64,000 nt of DNA from sequence record ON210139.1, one strand, 5' to 3'. The notes under the pieces are model-generated. The model saw only the letters and a list, made by a program, of their open reading frames with translations. It had not been told where the DNA came from and did no database searches. Positions 11,381 to 42,128 of the stretch are shown one piece after another (positions within the stretch are counted from its first letter, which is position 1; the number at the start of each line of letters is the position of its first letter). This DNA is from Escherichia phage EC128. A program made the position numbers and the translations under genes.

Positions 11381-11968
11381 ATGGACAATTCATGCGCCAT
11401 GGAATGGCCCAAACCTAGAGATAACAAAATGAGAACATTTTTAACTGGTCCTTATCTATCCCTGATGAATGCTTTTACACACCATTCTGATGCTAGAGTA
11501 GAAGAAATTTGTAAAAACGAATATATCCCGCCATTTGAAGACTTACTTAAACAGTATTGCACACTTCGACTAGACGGTGGACGTCAATCTGGTAAATCAA
11601 TTGCTGTGACTAACTTTGCTGCTAATTGGTTGTATGATGGCGGAACAGTTATTGTTCTTTCTAATACTTCAGCTTACGCTAAAATTTCTGCAAATAACAT
11701 TAAAAAGGAATTTTCGCGTTATTCTAATGATGATATACGTTTTCGTTTATTTACTGATTCTGTACGCAGTTTTATTGGTAATAAAGGAAGCAAGTTCAGA
11801 GGTTTATCGCTTTCGCGAATTTTGTATATAATTGATGAGCCTGTCAAATCTCCTGATATGGATAAGATTTATAGTGTCCATATTGACACTGTACACTGCT
11901 GCTGTAATATTAAATGTTGTATTGGTGGTATTACTCGTCCACAGTTTTTCGTAATCGGAATGCAATGA
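11381..11968 (+). CDS. hypothetical protein with Walker-A-like GGRQSGKS and a Cys-rich tail
   Basis: 195-aa ORF; start uncertain (alternative ATG 11429); CCCNIKCC near C-terminus. Confidence 0.4.
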   Translation: MDNSCAMEWPKPRDNKMRTFLTGPYLSLMNAFTHHSDARVEEICKNEYIPPFEDLLKQYCTLRLDGGRQSGKSIAVTNFAANWLYDGGTVIVLSNTSAYAKISANNIKKEFSRYSNDDIRFRLFTDSVRSFIGNKGSKFRGLSLSRILYIIDEPVKSPDMDKIYSVHIDTVHCCCNIKCCIGGITRPQFFVIGMQ

Positions 11969-12294
11969 TGACAGACACTCAGCTTTTCGAATATCTTTAT
12001 TTTTCGCCAAAAACTATTAAAAATAAATTGGTGAATCATTTTGAAATTTTGGCAAATAACAACGTCTTGAGCGAATTTTATCCTAAGCAATACAAATTAC
12101 AAAAAGGCGTATTCAAAGGATGTAGAGTTTTATGTACTGCTCCTAATGCACGGCTAATGAATAAAATTCCATATTTTACCATGGAATTTATTGATGGGCC
12201 TTTTAAAGGACTAATCACACAGAGTTTAATGGCATATGATTCTGAGCCATTTTTAATTAAAGAACAATCTTGGATAAATTTATTTTCTAATTGA
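11965..12294 (+). CDS. hypothetical protein
   Basis: ATG overlapping upstream stop (ATGATG); about 110 aa. Confidence 0.4.
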
Positions 12295-12301
12295 GGTTTA
12301 T

Positions 12302-12664
12302 ATGAAAGCATATCAAATTCTTGAAGGCACACATAAAGGTACTATTTATTTTGAAGATGGTATTCAAGCACGAATTATCGTTTCTAAAACCTTTAAAGAG
12401 GACTCTTTTGTAGACCCAGAAATTTTCTATGGTTTGCATGCCCGTGAAATTGAAATTGAGCAACAGCCTACAGTTAAAATTGAAGGTGGTCAACACCTGA
12501 ACGTTAACGTTCTGCGTCGTGAAACTCTGGAAGATGCAGTTAAGCATCCGGAAAAATATCCGCAGCTGACCATCCGTGTATCCGGTTATGCAGTTCGCTT
12601 TAACTCTCTGACTCCGGAACAGCAGCGCGACGTTATCGCTCGTACCTTTACCGAGAGTTTGTAA
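12302..12664 (+). CDS. grcA: autonomous glycyl-radical cofactor, GrcA/YfiD-like
   Basis: C-terminal ...[29 protein letters not shown] matches the glycyl-radical domain of E. coli YfiD/pyruvate formate-lyase; 3' half uses host-like CTG/CGT/CCG codons. Confidence 0.85.
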
Positions 12665-30333: not shown

Positions 30334-30807
30334 ATGTTATTGACTGGCAAATTATATAAAAAAGAAAAACAGAAATTTTATGATGCACAAAATGGTAAAT
30401 GCTTAATTTGCCAACGAGAACTAAATCCTGACGTTCAAGCTAATCACCTCGACCATGACCATGAATTAAATGGACCAAAAGCAGGAAAGGTACGTGGATT
30501 GCTTTGTAATCTATGCAATGCCGCAGAAGGTCAAATGAAGCATAAATTTAATCGTTCTGGCTTAAAGGGACAGGGTGTTGATTATCTTGAATGGTTAGAA
30601 AATTTACTTACTTACTTAAAATCCGATTACACCCAAAATAATATTCACCCTAACTTCGTTGGAGATAAATCAAAGGAATTTTCTCGTTTAGGAAAAGAGG
30701 AAATGATGGCTGAGATGCTTCAAAGAGGATTTGAATATAATGAATCTGACACCAAAACACAATTAATAGCTTCATTTAAGAAGCAGCTTAGAAAGAGTTT
30801 AAAATGA
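30334..30807 (+). CDS. 49: endonuclease VII (Holliday-junction resolvase)
   Basis: 157 aa; CLICQ...HLDHDH...CNLCN His-Me finger/zinc motif. Confidence 0.9.
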   Translation: MLLTGKLYKKEKQKFYDAQNGKCLICQRELNPDVQANHLDHDHELNGPKAGKVRGLLCNLCNAAEGQMKHKFNRSGLKGQGVDYLEWLENLLTYLKSDYTQNNIHPNFVGDKSKEFSRLGKEEMMAEMLQRGFEYNESDTKTQLIASFKKQLRKSLK

Positions 30808-31341
30808 CAATTGAAAAAGAAATTGAAGGATTGATTCATAAAACTAATAAAGACCTTTTGAACGAGAATGCTAATAAAGATTCTCGTGTTTTTCCAACTC
30901 AACGGGACCTTATGGCTGGTATTGTGTCTAAACACATTGCCAAAAATATGGTCCCGTCTTTTATTATGAAAGCGCATGAAAGCGGAATTATCCATTTCCA
31001 TGATATTGATTATTCCCCTGCTCTTCCATTTACTAATTGCTGTTTAGTAGATTTAAAAGGAATGCTTGAGAACGGATTTAAGCTCGGTAATGCACAGATT
31101 GAAACTCCTAAATCAATTGGCGTTGCTACTGCAATTATGGCACAAATTACTGCACAGGTTGCTTCCCATCAATATGGCGGAACGACTTTTGCGAATGTAG
31201 ATAAAGTACTTTCTCCTTATGTTAAACGCACCTATGCAAAACATATTGAAGATGCAGAAAAATGGCAAATCGCCGATGCGTTGAATTATGCTCAATCTAA
31301 AACAGAAAAAGACGTATACGATGCATTCCAAGCTTATGAGT
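30804..31341 (+). CDS. nrdD: anaerobic ribonucleotide reductase NrdD, exon 1
   Basis: Frame runs to 31349 but homology to exon 2 resumes at 32381; splice after U31341 inferred. Confidence 0.8.
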
Positions 31342-31545
31342 TAACGTAAGTCAAGCTCATGTAAAATCTGCCTAAAACGGGAAACTCTCACTGAGACAAT
31401 CCGTTGCTAAATCAGCGGTAGCTGTAAATGCCCAACGACTATCCCTGATGAATGTAAGGGAGTAGGGTCAAGCGACCCGAAACGGCAGACAACTCTTAGA
31501 GTTGAAGATATAGTCTGAACTGCATGGCGACATGCAGCTGTTTAT

Positions 31546-31569
31546 CCTCGTATAAATACGAATACGAGG
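31546..31569 (+). promoter_or_regulatory. late promoter TATAAATA embedded in a hairpin that sequesters the intron-ORF RBS
   Basis: CCTCGTA-TAAATACGAA-TACGAGG; GAGG of the stem is the SD for the ATG at 31577. Confidence 0.6.
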
Positions 31570-31576
31570 TGAAACG

Positions 31577-32353
31577 ATGAAATGGAAATTAAGAAAAAGC
31601 TTAAAAATTGACAATTCTGTAGCATTTACCTATATGGTAAGATTTCCTGATAAGTCTTTTTATATAGGTTTTAAAAAATTCAAAACTATATATGGTAAAG
31701 ATACAAATTGGAAAGAATACAATTCGTCATCTAAGCTTGTTAAAGAAAAGCTTAAAGATTATAAAGCTAAGTGGATAATTCTTCAAGTTTTTGATTCTTA
31801 TGAATCGGCCCTTAAACATGAAGAAATGCTTATTAGGAAACATTTTAATAACGAATTTATTCTTAATAAATCTATAGGTGGATATAAATTTAACAAATAT
31901 CCGGATTCAGAAGAACATAAGCAAAAACTTAGTAATGCCCATAAAGGTAAAATCTTATCTTTAAAACATAAAGATAAGATACGAGAGAAATTGATTGAGC
32001 ATTATAAAAATAATAGTAGAAGTGAAGCTCATGTTAAAAATAATATTGGTAGTAGAACGGCTAAAAAGACTGTTTCTATAGCTTTAAAATCCGGAAATAA
32101 ATTTAGAAGTTTTAAATCAGCTGCAAAATTTCTTAAATGCTCTGAAGAACAGGTTAGTAATCATCCAAATGTTATAGATATAAAAATAACAATTCATCCC
32201 GTCCCAGAATATGTTAGAATAAATGACAATATCTATAAATCATTTGTGGATGCTGCTAAAGATTTAAAACTCCACCCAAGTCGTATTAAAGATTTGTGCT
32301 TAGATGACAATTATCCAAATTACATTGTTTCATATAAACGGGTAGAGAAGTAG
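31577..32353 (+). CDS. intron-encoded GIY-YIG homing endonuclease, I-TevII-like
   Basis: 258 aa; FTYMVRFPDKSFYIGF; located inside the nrdD intron. Confidence 0.75.
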   Translation: MKWKLRKSLKIDNSVAFTYMVRFPDKSFYIGFKKFKTIYGKDTNWKEYNSSSKLVKEKLKDYKAKWIILQVFDSYESALKHEEMLIRKHFNNEFILNKSIGGYKFNKYPDSEEHKQKLSNAHKGKILSLKHKDKIREKLIEHYKNNSRSEAHVKNNIGSRTAKKTVSIALKSGNKFRSFKSAAKFLKCSEEQVSNHPNVIDIKITIHPVPEYVRINDNIYKSFVDAAKDLKLHPSRIKDLCLDDNYPNYIVSYKRVEK

Positions 32354-32380
32354 CGAACTCTACTGAACACATTGATGAAG

Positions 32381-33654
32381 TGAACACGTTATTCAGTTCA
32401 AACGGACAAACGCCTTTTGTAACAATTACATTTGGTACGGGAACTGACTGGACTGAACGAATGATTCAGAAAGCAATTTTGAAAAATCGTATTAAAGGTC
32501 TTGGTCGTGATGGGATAACTCCTATTTTCCCTAAGCTTGTTATGTTCGTTGAAGAAGGTGTTAATCTTTATAAAGACGATCCGAACTATGATATTAAGCA
32601 GCTTGCTCTAGAGTGTGCAAGCAAAAGGATGTATCCTGATATTATTTCAGCTAAGAACAATAAAGCTATCACTGGTTCATCTGTTCCTGTTTCTCCAATG
32701 GGTTGCCGTAGTTTCTTGAGCGTATGGAAAGATTCGACTGGTAATGAAATTCTTGATGGACGTAATAATCTTGGTGTTGTAACACTGAATCTTCCTCGCA
32801 TCGCGTTAGATTCTTATATTGGAACACAGTTCAATGAACAGAAATTTGTTGAATTATTCAATGAACGAATGGATTTGTGTTTTGAAGCATTGATGTGTAG
32901 AATTAGTTCCTTAAAAGGAGTTAAAGCTACTGTTGCTCCTATTCTTTACCAAGAAGGTGCATTCGGGGTTCGTCTTAAACCTGATGACGATATAATTGAG
33001 TTATTTAAAAGCGGTAGAAGTTCAGTGTCCCTAGGATACATTGGTATTCACGAATTGAATATTCTTGTTGGTCGTGATATTGGACAAGAAATTTTAACTA
33101 AAATGAATACTCATCTTAAACAATGGACTGAAAGAACTGGTTTTGCTTTTAGTTTGTATTCTACTCCTGCTGAAAACCTGTGCTATCGCTTCTGTAAACT
33201 TGATACCGAAAAATATGGAAGTGTAAAAGATGTTACCGATAAAGGCTGGTACACTAACAGTTTCCACGTTTCGGTAGAAGAAAATATTACTCCATTTGAA
33301 AAGATTTCTCGCGAAGCCCCATATCATTTCATTGCGACAGGTGGTCACATTTCTTATGTTGAACTTCCTGATATGAAAAATAACTTAAAAGGTCTTGAGG
33401 CCGTATGGGATTATGCTGCACAACATTTAGATTATTTTGGTGTTAACATGCCGGTAGATAAATGTTTTACATGCGGAAGTACCCATGAAATGACTCCTAC
33501 TGAAAACGGATTTGTTTGTTCTATTTGTGGAGAAACTGATCCTAAAAAGATGAACACCATAAGAAGAACATGCGGATATCTTGGAACTCCTAGCGTTGTT
33601 CCATGGAATTTAGGTAAAATGAAAGAAATGGTAAAACGAGTAAAACATGCATAG
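32381..33654 (+). CDS. nrdD: anaerobic ribonucleotide reductase NrdD, exon 2
   Basis: Zinc site CFTCGSTH...CSICGE and glycyl-radical motif RRTCGYLG near the C-terminus. Confidence 0.85.
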
Positions 33655-34477
33655 GTATTATATAATTTATAAAATAACAAATATAATTAATTCAAAGGAA
33701 TATATCGGTGCGCATAGCACCGATAACATAAATGACGGTTATATGGGGTCAGGAACATTGATTCGTGCCGCTTTATTAAAATATGGTAGAAAAAATTTTA
33801 ATAAAGAAATTTTACATGTTTTTGATAATGAAAAACAAATGTATGATAAAGAAGCTGAACTTGTAACCGAAGAGTATTGTCTAAAAGAAAATACATATAA
33901 TATTAAACCTGGTGGAAAAGGTGGAACTGCCTATGAACAGACACTTGAACATCGCCGCAAAAATAGTTTAGCAAATAAAGGTAAAAAGAGAACAGAAGAA
34001 ACTAAAATAGCTATTTCACGTGCTTTAAAGAAATATAAACGTACGCCAGAGCATCAAGCAAATTTAAATAAAGCCGTAAGCATAGCTATGAAGCGAAAAG
34101 ATGTTAGAAGTAAATTAGCTGGAGAGCGGTCTGAGAAAGATAAATTATCTATATCAAACGGTGTTAAAAAATATTACAATTCTTTGAGTGAAGAAGAACG
34201 CGAACTTCATCGCAAGCGAATTATTGAAGGTAAAAAGAATTCTCCCATGTCATTGGAATCTAGACAAAAGCTTTCAAAAGCTTTAAAAGGACTTCAAGTT
34301 GGTTCAAAAAATCCAATGTATGGAAAAATTTCTCCAACTAGCAAAACCGTTTCAGTTGACGGTATTAAATATGATTCAATTAAAAAGTGCTCAAATGCCA
34401 TAAAAGTTTCTAGACATCTTATACTAAAACGCTGTAATTCTACTGATGAAGCTTGGAAAAATTGGATATTATTATGA
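33647..34477 (+). CDS. GIY-YIG homing endonuclease (seg-like) between nrdD and nrdG
   Basis: 276 aa; YYIIYKITNIINSKEYIGAHSTDNINDGYMGSG; overlaps the nrdD stop and the nrdG start. Confidence 0.75.
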   Translation: MHRYYIIYKITNIINSKEYIGAHSTDNINDGYMGSGTLIRAALLKYGRKNFNKEILHVFDNEKQMYDKEAELVTEEYCLKENTYNIKPGGKGGTAYEQTLEHRRKNSLANKGKKRTEETKIAISRALKKYKRTPEHQANLNKAVSIAMKRKDVRSKLAGERSEKDKLSISNGVKKYYNSLSEEERELHRKRIIEGKKNSPMSLESRQKLSKALKGLQVGSKNPMYGKISPTSKTVSVDGIKYDSIKKCSNAIKVSRHLILKRCNSTDEAWKNWILL

Positions 34478-34944
34478 ATTATGACAGAATATACCCGTGC
34501 TGCTTTGTGAATGGCCCTGGATGCAGGGTCGTTCTTTTCGTTACAGGTTGTTTGCATAAATGTGAAGGGTGTTATAATAAATCAACATGGAATGCTAGAA
34601 ATGGTGTTCCATTCACTGGTGAAACACTAGAACAATTAATTGAATGTTTGAATAATGATTATATAGAAGGATTGACTATAACCGGAGGTGACCCTCTTTA
34701 TCCTGATAACAGAGACGTGATTCACTCTGTGGTTCAAACTATTAAAAATCTTTATCCCAATAAAAGCATTTGGTTGTGGACAGGATATAAGTTTGAAGAT
34801 ATTAAACAACTAGAAATGCTTAAATATGTTGATGTTATTATTGATGGGAAGTATGAGAAAAATCTTCCGACTAAAAAGCTGTGGCGAGGATCAGATAATC
34901 AGCGACTTTGGTCAAATACCGATGGGGTGTGGACACATGATTAA
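34474..34944 (+). CDS. nrdG: anaerobic RNR activating enzyme NrdG (radical SAM)
   Basis: 156 aa from ATG 34474; CLHKCEGCYN radical-SAM cysteine motif. Confidence 0.85.
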   Translation: MNYDRIYPCCFVNGPGCRVVLFVTGCLHKCEGCYNKSTWNARNGVPFTGETLEQLIECLNNDYIEGLTITGGDPLYPDNRDVIHSVVQTIKNLYPNKSIWLWTGYKFEDIKQLEMLKYVDVIIDGKYEKNLPTKKLWRGSDNQRLWSNTDGVWTHD

Positions 34945-35059: not shown

Positions 35060-35275
35060 ATGTATAAATTTCGTAAAGGTTTAGCTGATTTTCTTACAAC
35101 TGTAACATTCTTTCTGTTTATGGCAGTTGGAGCTATTTTCCTTATTCCTTTTATTGCTATATTTTTCGTGATTAGTTTAATTTCTCCAGAAAAGGGCTTA
35201 TCTTCTAGTGAGTTCAATGAGCGTCTGGATAAAATTACTAACAAGCTGAATGCGGTTCTTGATAAAAAGGATTAA
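35060..35275 (+). CDS. small membrane protein
   Basis: 71 aa with one long hydrophobic helix. Confidence 0.45.
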   Translation: MYKFRKGLADFLTTVTFFLFMAVGAIFLIPFIAIFFVISLISPEKGLSSSEFNERLDKITNKLNAVLDKKD

Positions 35276-35277
35276 TT

Positions 35278-35589
35278 ATGATTAGTTTTGAGCGGTATGT
35301 AGTAGAGAGTTGGAAGGGTTTTGATATGTTCGGTAATGACTATTATTTTTACGAATGTAGTCTAAATCCTAGTTTTTGGGCTGGACGTGAACGAGATCTC
35401 GAAGAAATTAATGCTCGTGCCGAATTGTTAGGTGAACTGCCTACGGTTTATTTTACCTTTGATGCATCTGGATTTGTTATCCAGGTTTATTTTCCTGAAG
35501 AAAACTCTGGCGAGAATTCTGTTAATCCTCCTTATTGGGCTTACCAAGGAATTATTTCTCGTGGAACAAAACTCGAACTTAAAGAATAA
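35278..35589 (+). CDS. hypothetical protein
   Basis: 103 aa, ATG overlapping the upstream stop. Confidence 0.5.
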   Translation: MISFERYVVESWKGFDMFGNDYYFYECSLNPSFWAGRERDLEEINARAELLGELPTVYFTFDASGFVIQVYFPEENSGENSVNPPYWAYQGIISRGTKLELKE

Positions 35590-35884
35590 GATTGAAGTCT
35601 ATGGAATTCCAGATGAAGTAGGTCGTTGTCCTGGATGTCAATCAGTTACAAAACTTCTAAAGGAGCTCAATGCTCCTTTTACTTTCTATAAAGTTCTTAC
35701 AAATAATGGTAAGATTGAGTATGATCGTCCGCTGATTGTATCTCTTGCTAAACGCGCTGGATTCACATCTCTTAACATTCGTTATCCAGTCATTTTCATT
35801 AATGATTCTAGACAAAAGAACATTAAACACTTCAAAGAAACTCTCATTTCACTTGGATATGATAGAGATATCATAGAAGATTAA
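35588..35884 (+). CDS. glutaredoxin/NrdH-like redoxin frame with no canonical start codon
   Basis: 98 sense codons with CPGC motif and no Met; begins right after the upstream stop in the +1 frame; possible ATT start at 35591. Confidence 0.45.
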   Translation, partial: KIEVYGIPDEVGRCPGCQSVTKLLKELNAPFTFYKVLTNNGKIEYDRPLIVSLAKRAGFTSLNIRYPVIFINDSRQKNIKHFKETLISLGYDRDIIED

Positions 35885-35885
35885 G

Positions 35886-35908
35886 ACGGGCCCTCTGGGC
35901 CTTTCTTT
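35886..35908 (+). terminator. hairpin GGCCC-TCT-GGGCC followed by T-rich tract
   Basis: Short GC stem, TTTCTTTC downstream. Confidence 0.4.
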
Positions 35909-35982
35909 CTCACATTCTGTATATTACCATTCTAAGCTATCGTTCCTTTCTTATCATTCCCTAAAATATTTTTCACAAAGTT

Positions 35983-36020
35983 GTTTACAACAAGTTCAAA
36001 CTATGGTATTATTAACATAT
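35983..36020 (+). promoter_or_regulatory. early promoter
   Basis: tttttcacaaagttgtttaca ... TATGGTATTAT. Confidence 0.55.
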
Positions 36021-41681: not shown

Positions 41682-41941
41682 CTTTTGATGAATTTAAAAA
41701 TGTTATGATGGGTCAGCATTTTGAATGCGAAGTAAAAGATGATATTGGGCATAAAGAAATTATTGAATATTGGTTTGAACCGCTAGAGGTTGAAGATAAT
41801 TGTATTAAAAAGGTTACGGTCTGCACTGATTGGGCTGTATCTTTTAACTTCAACATTTTAGATAATGACACACCTAAATCATTACGAGATATGGCTGTAT
41901 CTTGTATTAAGGATGCATACTGTGAAGTTTTCGACATTTGA
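41678..41941 (+). CDS. hypothetical small protein
   Basis: 87 aa, ATGA coupling to 47. Confidence 0.5.
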   Translation: MTFDEFKNVMMGQHFECEVKDDIGHKEIIEYWFEPLEVEDNCIKKVTVCTDWAVSFNFNILDNDTPKSLRDMAVSCIKDAYCEVFDI

Positions 41942-42128
41942 CATTAATGATGAATTCATAGCAAATATTGATTACACCGAAGAAGATTCTAGATATGTTG
42001 GAATAATTTATATCACATCAAAAGCAGCACAAGGTGTTGTTTGCATGGCTGAATTTGATGAATACTTTTTAGATTATGATGATATGATAGAATGGTCTAA
42101 AAGATACATTAAAAGGAATCTTTTGTGA
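41913..42128 (+). CDS. hypothetical small protein
   Basis: About 71 aa; start uncertain (ORF open from 41865). Confidence 0.35.
   Translation: MHTVKFSTFDINDEFIANIDYTEEDSRYVGIIYITSKAAQGVVCMAEFDEYFLDYDDMIEWSKRYIKRNLL

What the first reader, a model, noticed from the sequence alone, without database searches (positions are those of the whole stretch)
35278..35884. Glutaredoxin-like reading frame without any start codon
From 35588 a 98-codon frame encodes a CPGC redoxin (KIEVYGIPDEVGRCPGCQ...) but contains no Met. It begins immediately after the TAA of the upstream 103-aa ORF and is in the +1 frame relative to it. Expression would need a non-AUG start (ATT at 35591), a frameshift from the upstream ORF, or the gene is inactivated or mis-sequenced.
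Basis: seen in the sequence. Interest (0 to 1): 0.5.

Follow-up and report, generated by a model that had tools for sequence, protein, structure and literature searches.

The report
T4 nrdH gene with GTG start
The "start-less" glutaredoxin frame is the ordinary nrdH gene of a T4-like phage, and it most likely begins at a conserved GTG codon (35561) that lies inside the last 29 bases of the upstream gene, as nrdH is annotated in T4 itself.

Summary
The window comes from a T4-like phage (Tequatrovirus). The CPGC frame is nrdH (T4 ORF 55.7), 100% identical in DNA to T4 over its last 300 nt.

It has no ATG, but it does not begin after the upstream TAA. The frame is open from 35432 and holds an in-frame GTG at 35561, with an AAGGA ribosome-binding site (35546-35550) 10 nt upstream.

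T4 and T2 records annotate nrdH from the homologous GTG. So do records for KAW1E185 (99.2% identical here) and for Mosigvirus, Dhakavirus, Gaprivervirus and Kanagawavirus phages. In phage CC31 the aligned codon is ATG.

T4 NrdH is equally Met-less, and it was detected by mass spectrometry (PMC9697503, Table S2).

Substitution patterns place the switch of coding frame at about 35561-35590. The ATT at 35591 has no ribosome-binding site. No conserved slippery site supports a frameshift, and purifying selection rules out a pseudogene.

The upstream 103-aa ORF (phrog_2749, function unknown) is real. It is absent from T4 and T2 but widespread, and its conserved C-terminal codons carry the nrdH ribosome-binding site and GTG.

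One oddity: phage PM2's record fuses the two ORFs through an A7 run, probably a homopolymer sequencing error.

Verdict: already known, low interest. nrdH = 35561-35884 (107 aa).

The parts
35060..35275 (+). Homolog of T4 gene 55.8 (71 aa, predicted small membrane protein). Its stop lies 2 nt before the ATG of the next ORF.
   Evidence: ORF list. phrog_1930, E 1.7e-36. Annotated 55.8 at the syntenic position in T2 and T4.
35278..35589 (+). 103-aa ORF of unknown function (phrog_2749). Absent from T4 and T2, present between 55.8 and nrdH in many T4-like phages. Its last 29 nt overlap nrdH.
35432..35560 (+). Open but non-coding upstream extension of the nrdH frame. It contains GTG 35432 and ATG 35462, which some public records wrongly use as the start.
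   Evidence: In 10 aligned genomes, 19 of 20 variable sites here are non-synonymous in the nrdH frame, against 14 of 20 synonymous in the ORF103 frame. SD pairing for these codons is +0.1 and -2.4 kcal/mol.
35546..35550 (+). Shine-Dalgarno sequence AAGGA for nrdH, embedded in the Tyr-Gln-Gly codons of the upstream ORF. It lies 10 nt before the GTG.
   Evidence: Anti-SD duplex dG is -5.4, equal to the neighbouring genes (-5.0 to -6.2). An SD-like element at 6-10 nt is conserved in all lineages examined.
35561..35563 (+). GTG start codon of nrdH.
   Evidence: Homologous to the annotated GTG start of T4 ORF 55.7 and T2 nrdH. Annotated as the start in KAW1E185, O157tp3, IME281, P896, CIP9 and PEi20. 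Invariant in all 25 loci of this clade. Aligns with the ATG of CC31 nrdH.
35561..35884 (+). nrdH (T4 gene 55.7) coding sequence: a 107-aa glutaredoxin-fold protein. The N-terminus reads fMet-EQNSNLKNK-IEVYG.
   Evidence: 100% nt identity to T4 over 35585-35884. Pfam Glutaredoxin. phrog_22 thioredoxin domain. The closest solved structure is T4 glutaredoxin 1ABA/1AAZ. Substitutions run 42 synonymous to 27 non-synonymous, with 48 of 69 at third positions.
35561..35589 (+). 29-nt dual-coding overlap of ORF103 (frame 1) and nrdH (frame 2). It sits inside a nearly invariant block, 35545-35596.
   Evidence: Only 2 variable columns (35574, 35587) fall in 35545-35596 across 10 genomes, against about 0.19 per nt over the whole segment.
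35627..35638 (+). CPGC redox motif (residues 23-26 counted from the GTG).
   Evidence: Read directly from the sequence. Aligns with the CVYC active site of T4 glutaredoxin.
35888..35912 (+). Intrinsic terminator-like hairpin (GGGCCC-TCT-GGGCC) plus T-tract, just after nrdH. An early-promoter-like site follows at 35984-36012.
   Evidence: Pattern scan. T4 record Y00122 annotates early promoter P2 at the corresponding place.

Best explanation
The region holds two real, overlapping genes of a T4-like phage. The second is nrdH (T4 gene 55.7), a glutaredoxin-fold protein encoded next to the anaerobic ribonucleotide reductase genes nrdD and nrdG.

nrdH is translated independently from a GTG at 35561, read as fMet, which gives a 107-aa protein (35561-35884). 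An AAGGA Shine-Dalgarno sequence (35546-35550) sits 10 nt upstream.

Both signals lie inside the last codons of the upstream 103-aa ORF, in ...Tyr-Gln-Gly-Ile-Ile-Ser-Arg-Gly.... The two genes therefore overlap by 29 nt in different frames.

Shown here: the homology, the conservation of the GTG and Shine-Dalgarno sequence, the point where the coding frame switches, and MS detection of the equally Met-less T4 protein.

Inferred: that ribosomes really start at this GTG in this phage. The weak initiation region (GUG plus a long spacer) may also get help from ribosomes translating or terminating the upstream ORF, that is, translational coupling.
For: 1. Identity. The window matches Tequatrovirus genomes at 95-99%, and 35585-35884 is 100% identical to T4 ORF 55.7.

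2. T4 and T2 precedent. These phages lack the 103-aa ORF. Their nrdH has no Met codon and is annotated from GTG: taAGGAatagttGTGaaacaaaataagATT.

3. Same element in the window. The window reads cAAGGAattatttctcGTGgaacaaaac. KAW1E185 and RefSeq O157tp3 annotate exactly this GTG, giving 107 aa.

4. Conservation of the start.
- An SD followed by an in-frame GTG is kept in Tequatro-, Mosig-, Dhaka-, Gapriver- and Kanagawavirus.
- The GTG-to-Ile distance takes four values (12, 18, 21, 27 nt), all multiples of 3.
- In CC31 the aligned codon is ATG: M-ENSQLRAKIYG against V-EQNSNLKNKIEVYG.

5. Selection on the GTG itself. The ORF103 codon carrying it varies only in its first base: CGT (Arg), TGT (Cys) or AGT (Ser), always followed by G. 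So the GTG is conserved rather than the upstream amino acid.

6. Where the coding frame switches.
- In 35432-35560, changes are 14 synonymous to 6 non-synonymous in the ORF103 frame, and 1 to 19 in the nrdH frame.
- After 35590, changes are 42 to 27 in the nrdH frame, and 4 to 65 in the ORF103 frame.
- 35545-35596 is nearly invariant.

7. Shine-Dalgarno energies. GTG35561 scores -5.4, ATT35591 -0.9, GTG35432 +0.1 and ATG35462 -2.4.

8. Protein evidence. T4 NrdH (T4p072, 41805-42113, 309 nt, which matches the length of the GTG-start ORF 55.7 in Y00122) was detected by proteomics. It is classed as late protein and early RNA, and 'NA' marks proteins not detected (PMC9697503 Table S2).
Against: - There are no N-terminal data for this phage or for T4 in what I could read.
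- The SD-GTG spacer is 10 nt, longer than the 6 nt of neighbouring genes. Together with GUG this predicts weak initiation.
- The glutaredoxin fold itself begins only at Ile11, so the 10-residue N-terminal extension has no known role.
- Distant genera start with ATG immediately before that Ile.
- Conservation of 35545-35596 is confounded with constraint from the overlapping ORF103 frame.
- Public annotations disagree on the start: TTG in KMB42, an internal ATG in ESh27, and an upstream ATG in IME523 and MY742.
Confidence: 0.9

Rival explanations
1. Initiation at the ATT codon 35591 (AUU start, as in infC). This could be de novo, or by termination-reinitiation of ribosomes that have just finished the upstream ORF at TAA 35587-35589, 1 nt away.
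For: - The ATT is invariant.
- It sits 1 nt after the upstream stop in this window.
- The fold begins here.
- KP179 and GEC-3S have ATG right before the same Ile codon.
Against: - There is no Shine-Dalgarno pairing upstream (dG -0.9, at background level).
- The ATT encodes the conserved Ile of beta-strand 1, so its invariance is explained without a start role.
- In Mosigvirus the upstream stop moves 6 nt downstream, past the ATT. In T4 and T2 the upstream stop is 14 nt before the ATT. The stop-ATT juxtaposition is therefore not conserved.
- The GTG and its SD are conserved in frame in every lineage.
Confidence: 0.04
2. A programmed +1 (or -2) ribosomal frameshift near the end of the 103-aa ORF produces an ORF103-NrdH fusion protein. 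This would be the only or the main source of the redoxin domain.
For: - nrdH is in the +1 frame and overlaps the ORF end in every lineage that has the ORF.
- In the single record of Pectobacterium phage PM2, the two are one 199-aa ORF joined through GGAAAAAAAT, so a fusion is at least conceivable.
Against: - T4 and T2 lack the ORF and express the same gene alone. The T4 protein is detected.
- 35561-35589 (GTGGAACAAAACTCGAACTTAAAGAATAA) has no slippery or homopolymer motif.
- The stop codon and its position differ between Tequatrovirus (TAA 35587) and Mosigvirus (TGA 6 nt later), unlike prfB-type sites.
- There is no stimulatory RNA structure (z -0.29).
- Profile searches of about 1.8 billion representatives found no fused relative. 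Specific hits are 88-100 aa; the one long hit (802 aa) matches in 5 short stretches and looks spurious.
- PM2 with one more A restores the canonical two-gene layout, with the conserved GTG in frame.
Confidence: 0.03
3. nrdH is inactivated here (a lost start codon), or the missing ATG is a sequencing error.
For: There is no ATG anywhere in the frame.
Against: - The same Met-less frame occurs in T4, T2 and hundreds of independently sequenced phages. 418 records share the 60-nt junction at 90% identity or more.
- The frame is intact, with synonymous-biased divergence.
- The T4 protein is detected.
Confidence: 0.01
4. Translation starts further upstream in the open frame, at GTG 35432 (150 aa) or ATG 35462 (140 aa). 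Some deposited annotations do this (ESh27 'anaerobic glutaredoxin', 140 aa).
For: The frame is open from 35432 and contains an ATG.
Against: - Across 10 genomes this stretch evolves as non-coding in the nrdH frame: 1 synonymous change to 19 non-synonymous.
- There is no SD (+0.1 and -2.4).
- The extension does not exist in T4 or T2, and is closed by stops in Kanagawavirus.
Confidence: 0.01

Closest known systems
Bacteriophage T4 nrdH (ORF 55.7; UniProt P07077; RefSeq T4p072) and T2 nrdH (YP_010073721)
   Same: - Orthologous gene: 100% (T4) and 99.7% (T2) nt identity over the last 300 nt.
- Same neighbours (nrdD, nrdG, 55.8 upstream; terminator, early promoter and 55.6 downstream).
- Same CPGC motif and the same absence of any ATG.
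- Same AAGGA...GTG initiation region.
   Different: - Here a 103-aa ORF sits between 55.8 and nrdH, and the nrdH start lies inside it (29-nt overlap).
- The spacer is 10 nt instead of 6.
- The N-terminus is 5 residues longer (MEQNSNLKNK against MKQNK).
nrdH of ORF103-bearing T4-like phages (e.g. Escherichia phage vB_EcoM_KAW1E185 QBQ78359, O157 typing phage 3 YP_009592887, RB51)
   Same: Identical architecture, with the GTG start annotated at the homologous position to give a 107-aa product. KAW1E185 is 99.2% identical across the region.
   Different: Essentially nothing. The window additionally carries a GIY-YIG endonuclease gene between nrdD and nrdG, which KAW1E185 lacks.
T4 glutaredoxin/thioredoxin NrdC (PDB 1AAZ, 1ABA)
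   Same: Closest solved structure by sequence (E 5e-4). It has the same short glutaredoxin fold, beginning at ...(K)VYG, with a CxxC motif at the same place.
   Different: - A distant paralog with a CVYC motif.
- It starts with ATG two codons before the first strand.
- It serves the aerobic reductase.
Bacterial NrdH-redoxin of class Ib RNR operons (E. coli NrdH, TIGR02194)
   Same: A small glutaredoxin-fold protein with a CxxC motif, encoded next to ribonucleotide reductase genes. It shares the gene name.
   Different: There is no NCBIfam NrdH-family hit, only a sub-threshold YruB-family match (16 bits against a cut-off of 88.55). The motif is CPGC, not the C(V/M)QC I recall for NrdH-redoxins. 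The phage gene sits with class III (nrdDG) genes, not class Ib. The shared name does not establish membership.

Membership tests
T4 nrdH / gp55.7 orthologous group | Sequence orthology to T4 ORF 55.7 | tested here: met
   100% nt identity to T4 Y00122 over 35585-35884, and 99.7% to T2. tblastn finds 1349 phage records.
T4 nrdH / gp55.7 orthologous group | Synteny: nrdD - nrdG - 55.8 - nrdH - terminator/early promoter - 55.6 | tested here: met
   One extra ORF (35278-35589) is interposed, as in 526 other records.
T4 nrdH / gp55.7 orthologous group | Glutaredoxin/thioredoxin fold domain with a CxxC motif | tested here: met
   PF00462 at 24.1 bits against a cut-off of 22.9. phrog_22 at E 5e-16. 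CPGC at 35627-35638. Aligns to 1ABA/1AAZ.
T4 nrdH / gp55.7 orthologous group | Non-AUG (GTG) start preceded by an AAGGA-type Shine-Dalgarno sequence | tested here: met
   GTG 35561 with AAGGA 35546-35550, homologous to the annotated T4/T2 start.
T4 nrdH / gp55.7 orthologous group | Protein actually made; redox activity towards a ribonucleotide reductase | not testable with these tools
   The only evidence is indirect. T4 NrdH was detected by MS (PMC9697503 Table S2). I found no activity data in the held library.
Bacterial NrdH-redoxin (class Ib RNR reductant, TIGR02194) | Match to the curated NrdH family model, and the C(V/M)QC active-site motif (motif recalled from memory, not tested against a source) | tested here: not met
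   The NCBIfam scan returns only TIGR02196 YruB-family at 16.1 bits, against a cut-off of 88.55. The motif here is CPGC.
Programmed +1 ribosomal frameshift (prfB-type) | Conserved slippery codon followed by an in-frame stop or slow codon, with a closely spaced upstream SD-like stimulator | tested here: not met
   There is no slippery motif in 35561-35589. The stop type and position are not conserved between Tequatrovirus and Mosigvirus. AAGGA lies 36 nt before the stop. There is no significant RNA structure. The gene exists without the upstream ORF in T4 and T2.
AUU-initiated genes (infC-type) | An AUU codon served by a Shine-Dalgarno sequence at functional spacing and acting as the first codon in homologs | tested here: not met
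   dG is -0.9 kcal/mol upstream of ATT 35591, against a background mean of -1.8. Homologs extend in frame upstream to a conserved GTG or ATG.

The most novel reading that the evidence does not exclude
The ORF103-nrdH overlap may be a conserved regulatory module rather than mere gene packing. NrdH synthesis from the weak GUG/long-spacer site would depend on translation of ORF103 (coupling or occlusion). In some lineages the two products could also be joined: the PM2 record fuses them through an A7 run, which could be a true fusion or a site of transcriptional or ribosomal slippage giving both separate and fused forms. That would link the unknown phrog_2749 protein functionally to the anaerobic-reductase redoxin.
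Probability: 0.07. Interest if true: 0.4.

Novelty: already known. Interest (0 to 1): 0.1.

Why it matters
The value is mostly practical. The feature is a correctly functioning, long-annotated T4 gene with a GTG start, so it needs no exotic mechanism.

The useful by-products are annotation guidance and two small evolutionary points:
- Annotation. In ORF103-bearing T4-like phages nrdH should start at the GTG inside the upstream ORF. Public records currently use four different starts.
- Embedded signals. The nrdH Shine-Dalgarno sequence and start codon are embedded in, and co-conserved with, the C-terminal codons of a widespread ORF of unknown function that T4 and T2 have lost.
- A lead on T4's GTG. 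One conjecture, untested here, is that T4's non-AUG start is left over from that overlap.

Tried and rejected
- **Function of the 103-aa ORF.**
  - Pfam and NCBIfam gave no hit.
  - PHROGs gave only phrog_2749, of unknown function.
  - The AF2 model has pLDDT 76.
  - BFVD returned only uncharacterised phage homologs plus the PM2 fusion.
  - A word-indexed search found 4 clusters. A full profile search of 1.84 billion representatives found 9, mostly 88-100 aa and none about 200 aa.
  - Function remains unknown.
- **RNA structure around the start.** Folding 35521-35620 gave z = -0.29, which is not significant.
- **Literature.** I found no held paper that states the T4 nrdH start codon explicitly. 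Miller et al. 2003 (PMC150520) is not held. The claim that T4 uses GTG therefore rests on the deposited T4/T2 annotations and sequence, not on a paper.
- **More junction variants.** IMG/VR pattern scans for the junction with a free start codon returned only contigs already seen, all with GTG.
- **Upstream ATG 35462 and GTG 35432.** Rejected on substitution pattern and lack of SD.
- **Structure prediction with divergent homologs.** I used a 4-sequence alignment instead.

Full report
**What is in the sequence**

- A 103-aa ATG ORF runs from 35278 to 35589 and ends in TAA.
- In the +1 frame relative to it, a reading frame encodes ...KIEVYGIPDEVGRCPGCQ... and ends at TAA 35882-35884.
- The 98 codons from 35588 contain no Met. 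They hit Pfam Glutaredoxin just above its gathering score, 24.1 against 22.9 bits.

One point is wrong. The frame does not begin after the TAA.
- It is open from 35432, with TAG at 35429-35431.
- That GTG is preceded by AAGGA at 35546-35550.

**Where the window comes from**

Megablast of 35000-36100 hits 684 phage records, almost all Tequatrovirus or other T4-like phages of enterobacteria. The best is Escherichia phage vB_EcoM_KAW1E185 at 99.2%.

The gene order matches the T4 nrdD-to-55 region:
- nrdD, split by a group I intron
- nrdG
- 55.8
- the redoxin
- a terminator and an early-type promoter
- 55.6

The redoxin is nrdH, the old T4 ORF 55.7. Positions 35585-35884 are 100% identical to T4 Y00122 and 99.7% identical to T2.

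**How T4 and T2 start this gene**

T4 and T2 lack the 103-aa ORF, so nrdH follows 55.8 directly.
- Their nrdH product (VKQNKIEVYG...IIED) has no Met codon either.
- It is annotated from a GTG: agtAAGGAatagttGTGaaacaaaataagATTgaagtc.

The Met-less frame is therefore the normal, long-annotated state of this gene, not a peculiarity of this window.

T4 NrdH has also been seen as a protein.
- Table S2 of PMC9697503 lists nrdH (T4p072, 41805-42113, 309 nt, which matches the length of the GTG-start ORF 55.7 in Y00122).
- Its protein class is 'late' and its transcript class 'early'. 'NA' is reserved for products not detected, as for 55.8.

**The same start in the window**

The window reads cAAGGAattatttctcGTGgaacaaaacTCGAACTTAAAGAATaagATTgaagtc. 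This is the same AAGGA...GTG-xAA-CAA-AAy element as in T4, with a longer spacer (10 nt against 6) and five extra codons.

Several records annotate nrdH from exactly this GTG (107 aa in the Tequatro- and Mosigvirus records):
- KAW1E185
- RefSeq O157 typing phage 3 (Mosigvirus)
- IME281 (Dhakavirus)
- P896 (Gaprivervirus)
- CIP9 and PEi20 (Kanagawavirus)

In all 25 loci of this clade that I read, an SD-like element is followed 6-10 nt later by an in-frame GTG.
- The SD variants are AAGGA, AAGGAG, AGGGGG and GAAGGTGG.
- The GTG-to-Ile distance takes four values (12, 18, 21, 27 nt), all multiples of three.
- In phage CC31 (Karamvirus) the aligned codon is ATG: M-ENSQLRAKIYG against V-EQNSNLKNKIEVYG.
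- More distant genera (Jiaodavirus, Krischvirus, Roskildevirus, Gelderlandvirus) use ATG 0-3 codons before the conserved Ile.

**Where coding really switches frame**

I compared ten genomes that align without gaps to 35278-35884.

| Region | ORF103 frame (syn : non-syn) | nrdH frame (syn : non-syn) | Third-position share |
|---|---|---|---|
| 35432-35560 | 14 : 6 | 1 : 19 | 15 of 20 in the ORF103 frame |
| 35590-35884 | 4 : 65 | 42 : 27 | 48 of 69 in the nrdH frame |

- The open upstream extension of the nrdH frame is therefore not coding. This rejects GTG 35432 and ATG 35462, the latter used by the ESh27 record.
- The block 35545-35596, which holds the SD, the spacer, the GTG and the overlap, has only two variable columns. 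From the overall rate I would expect about nine.
- 418 phage records carry the 60-nt junction at 90% identity or more, and 139 of them are identical.

**Ribosome-binding-site strength**

Duplex energies with the 16S 3' tail are as follows.

| Candidate start | dG (kcal/mol) |
|---|---|
| GTG 35561 | -5.4 |
| ATT 35591 | -0.9 |
| GTG 35432 | +0.1 |
| ATG 35462 | -2.4 |
| Neighbouring genes' ATGs | -5.0 to -6.2 |

- The background mean is -1.8.
- In Kanagawavirus the conserved GTG has a much better SD (-8.6) than the upstream ATG that some records use (-3.3).
- Local RNA folding is not significant, with z = -0.29.

**The upstream ORF**

ORF 35278-35589 is a real gene. The evidence:
- It matches phrog_2749 at E 7e-49.
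- It occurs in 526 phage records.
- Syntenic homologs at 38-48% identity occur in three other genera.
- Its variation is biased to third positions.
- The AF2 model is confident, with pLDDT 76.

Its function is unknown.
- Pfam and NCBIfam give no hit.
- The family is tiny and confined to phages.

Its conserved C-terminus, W-x-Y-Q/E-G-...-(R/C/S)-G, carries the nrdH signals. The Gln-Gly codons are the SD, and the xGT-GGA codon pair holds the GTG.
- That codon is CGT, TGT or AGT in different genera. Only the base outside the GTG varies, despite giving Arg, Cys or Ser.
- This points to selection on the start codon itself.

Because divergent homologs occupy the same slot, the ORF is probably ancestral in this clade and was lost in T4 and T2. 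This is an inference.

**The rivals**

- **ATT start.** There is no SD. The Ile is simply the first-strand residue, aligning to residue 3 of T4 glutaredoxin 1ABA. The stop-ATT adjacency is not conserved: in Mosigvirus the stop is 6 nt further on, and in T4 it lies upstream of the GTG.
- **+1 frameshift fusion.**
  - There is no slippery motif and no conserved stop context.
  - T4 and T2 make the protein without the ORF.
  - No fused homolog turned up in the large protein searches.
- **Pseudogene or sequencing error.** This is excluded by conservation and selection.

**An oddity found on the way**

BFVD fold search returned a 199-aa 'glutaredoxin' from Pectobacterium phage PM2. Its N-terminal half is an ORF103 homolog.
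- In the PM2 record the two ORFs are one frame, joined across GGAAAAAAAT (A7).
- The conserved AAGGA...GTG is still present in PM2, but it is out of frame with the redoxin.
- Adding one A restores the canonical layout exactly: the ORF ends ...SGKKIS*, and nrdH starts V-EKKYPKIEIYG.
- PM2 is a single isolate with no close relative in the collection.
- A homopolymer miscall is the simplest reading. A genuine fusion or a slippage site cannot be excluded.

**Verdict**

nrdH in this window is 35561-35884, 107 aa with a GTG start, and overlaps the upstream ORF by 29 nt.
- Its non-AUG option is right in kind, but it names the wrong codon.
- This is an already-known feature of T4-type phages and is of low interest.
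- Confidence in the GTG start is about 0.9. The remaining uncertainty is the lack of direct N-terminal evidence.

Noticed in passing
L026 (Pectobacterium phage PM2, KF835987) 11902-12501, minus strand: PM2's record has the ORF103 homolog and nrdH as a single 199-aa ORF, joined through an A7 run (GGAAAAAAAT). With A8 the normal two-gene overlap and the in-frame GTG are restored. Most likely a homopolymer sequencing error, but it could be a real fusion or a slippage site. PM2 has no close relative in the collection to check against.
   Followed up: partly
window 35278-35589: The 103-aa ORF (phrog_2749) between 55.8 and nrdH is absent from T4 and T2. It is present in 526 phage records and, at 38-48% identity, in Dhaka-, Gapriver- and Kanagawavirus at the same position. 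The AF2 model is confident but has no recognisable fold match. Function unknown.
   Followed up: partly
L016 885-1307; L003 2073-2384; L018 966-1307; L027 560-901: Public records disagree on the nrdH start in ORF103-bearing phages. ESh27 uses an internal ATG of the other frame (140 aa). KMB42 uses a TTG created by the 35574 C>T variant. IME523 and MY742 use an upstream ATG with poor SD. Others use the conserved GTG.
   Followed up: yes
window 33647-34477: A 276-aa GIY-YIG/NUMOD3 homing-endonuclease-like ORF sits between nrdD and nrdG, and its stop overlaps the nrdG ATG at 34474. T2 and KAW1E185 have nothing there. T4 has mobC in that slot. I did not compare it with mobC.
   Followed up: no
window 30804-33654: nrdD is split into 30804-31349 and 32380-33654 by a group I intron (Rfam RF00028, 98 bits, 31306-31537). 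The intron carries a GIY-YIG/NUMOD1 endonuclease ORF (31577-32353), as I recall for the T4 nrdD intron with I-TevII (a resemblance from memory, not tested here).
   Followed up: partly
L019 (Shigella phage CT01) 611-874: CT01 has an 87-aa hybrid ORF. It appears to join 55.8 to the C-terminal part of ORF103, which looks like a partial deletion. The SD-GTG-nrdH junction is kept intact.
   Followed up: no
P0002 (101 aa, Logan assembly): A variant of the ORF103 protein whose C-terminus is frameshifted (…WAYQGNYFSWNKTQT) right at the SD/GTG region. It could be an indel or an assembly error, and I did not examine its DNA.
   Followed up: no
window 34453-34944: The mechanical ORF list starts nrdG at TTG 34453 (163 aa). 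The T2 and T4 gene is 471 nt, which matches ATG 34474 (156 aa, MNYDRIYP...).
   Followed up: partly
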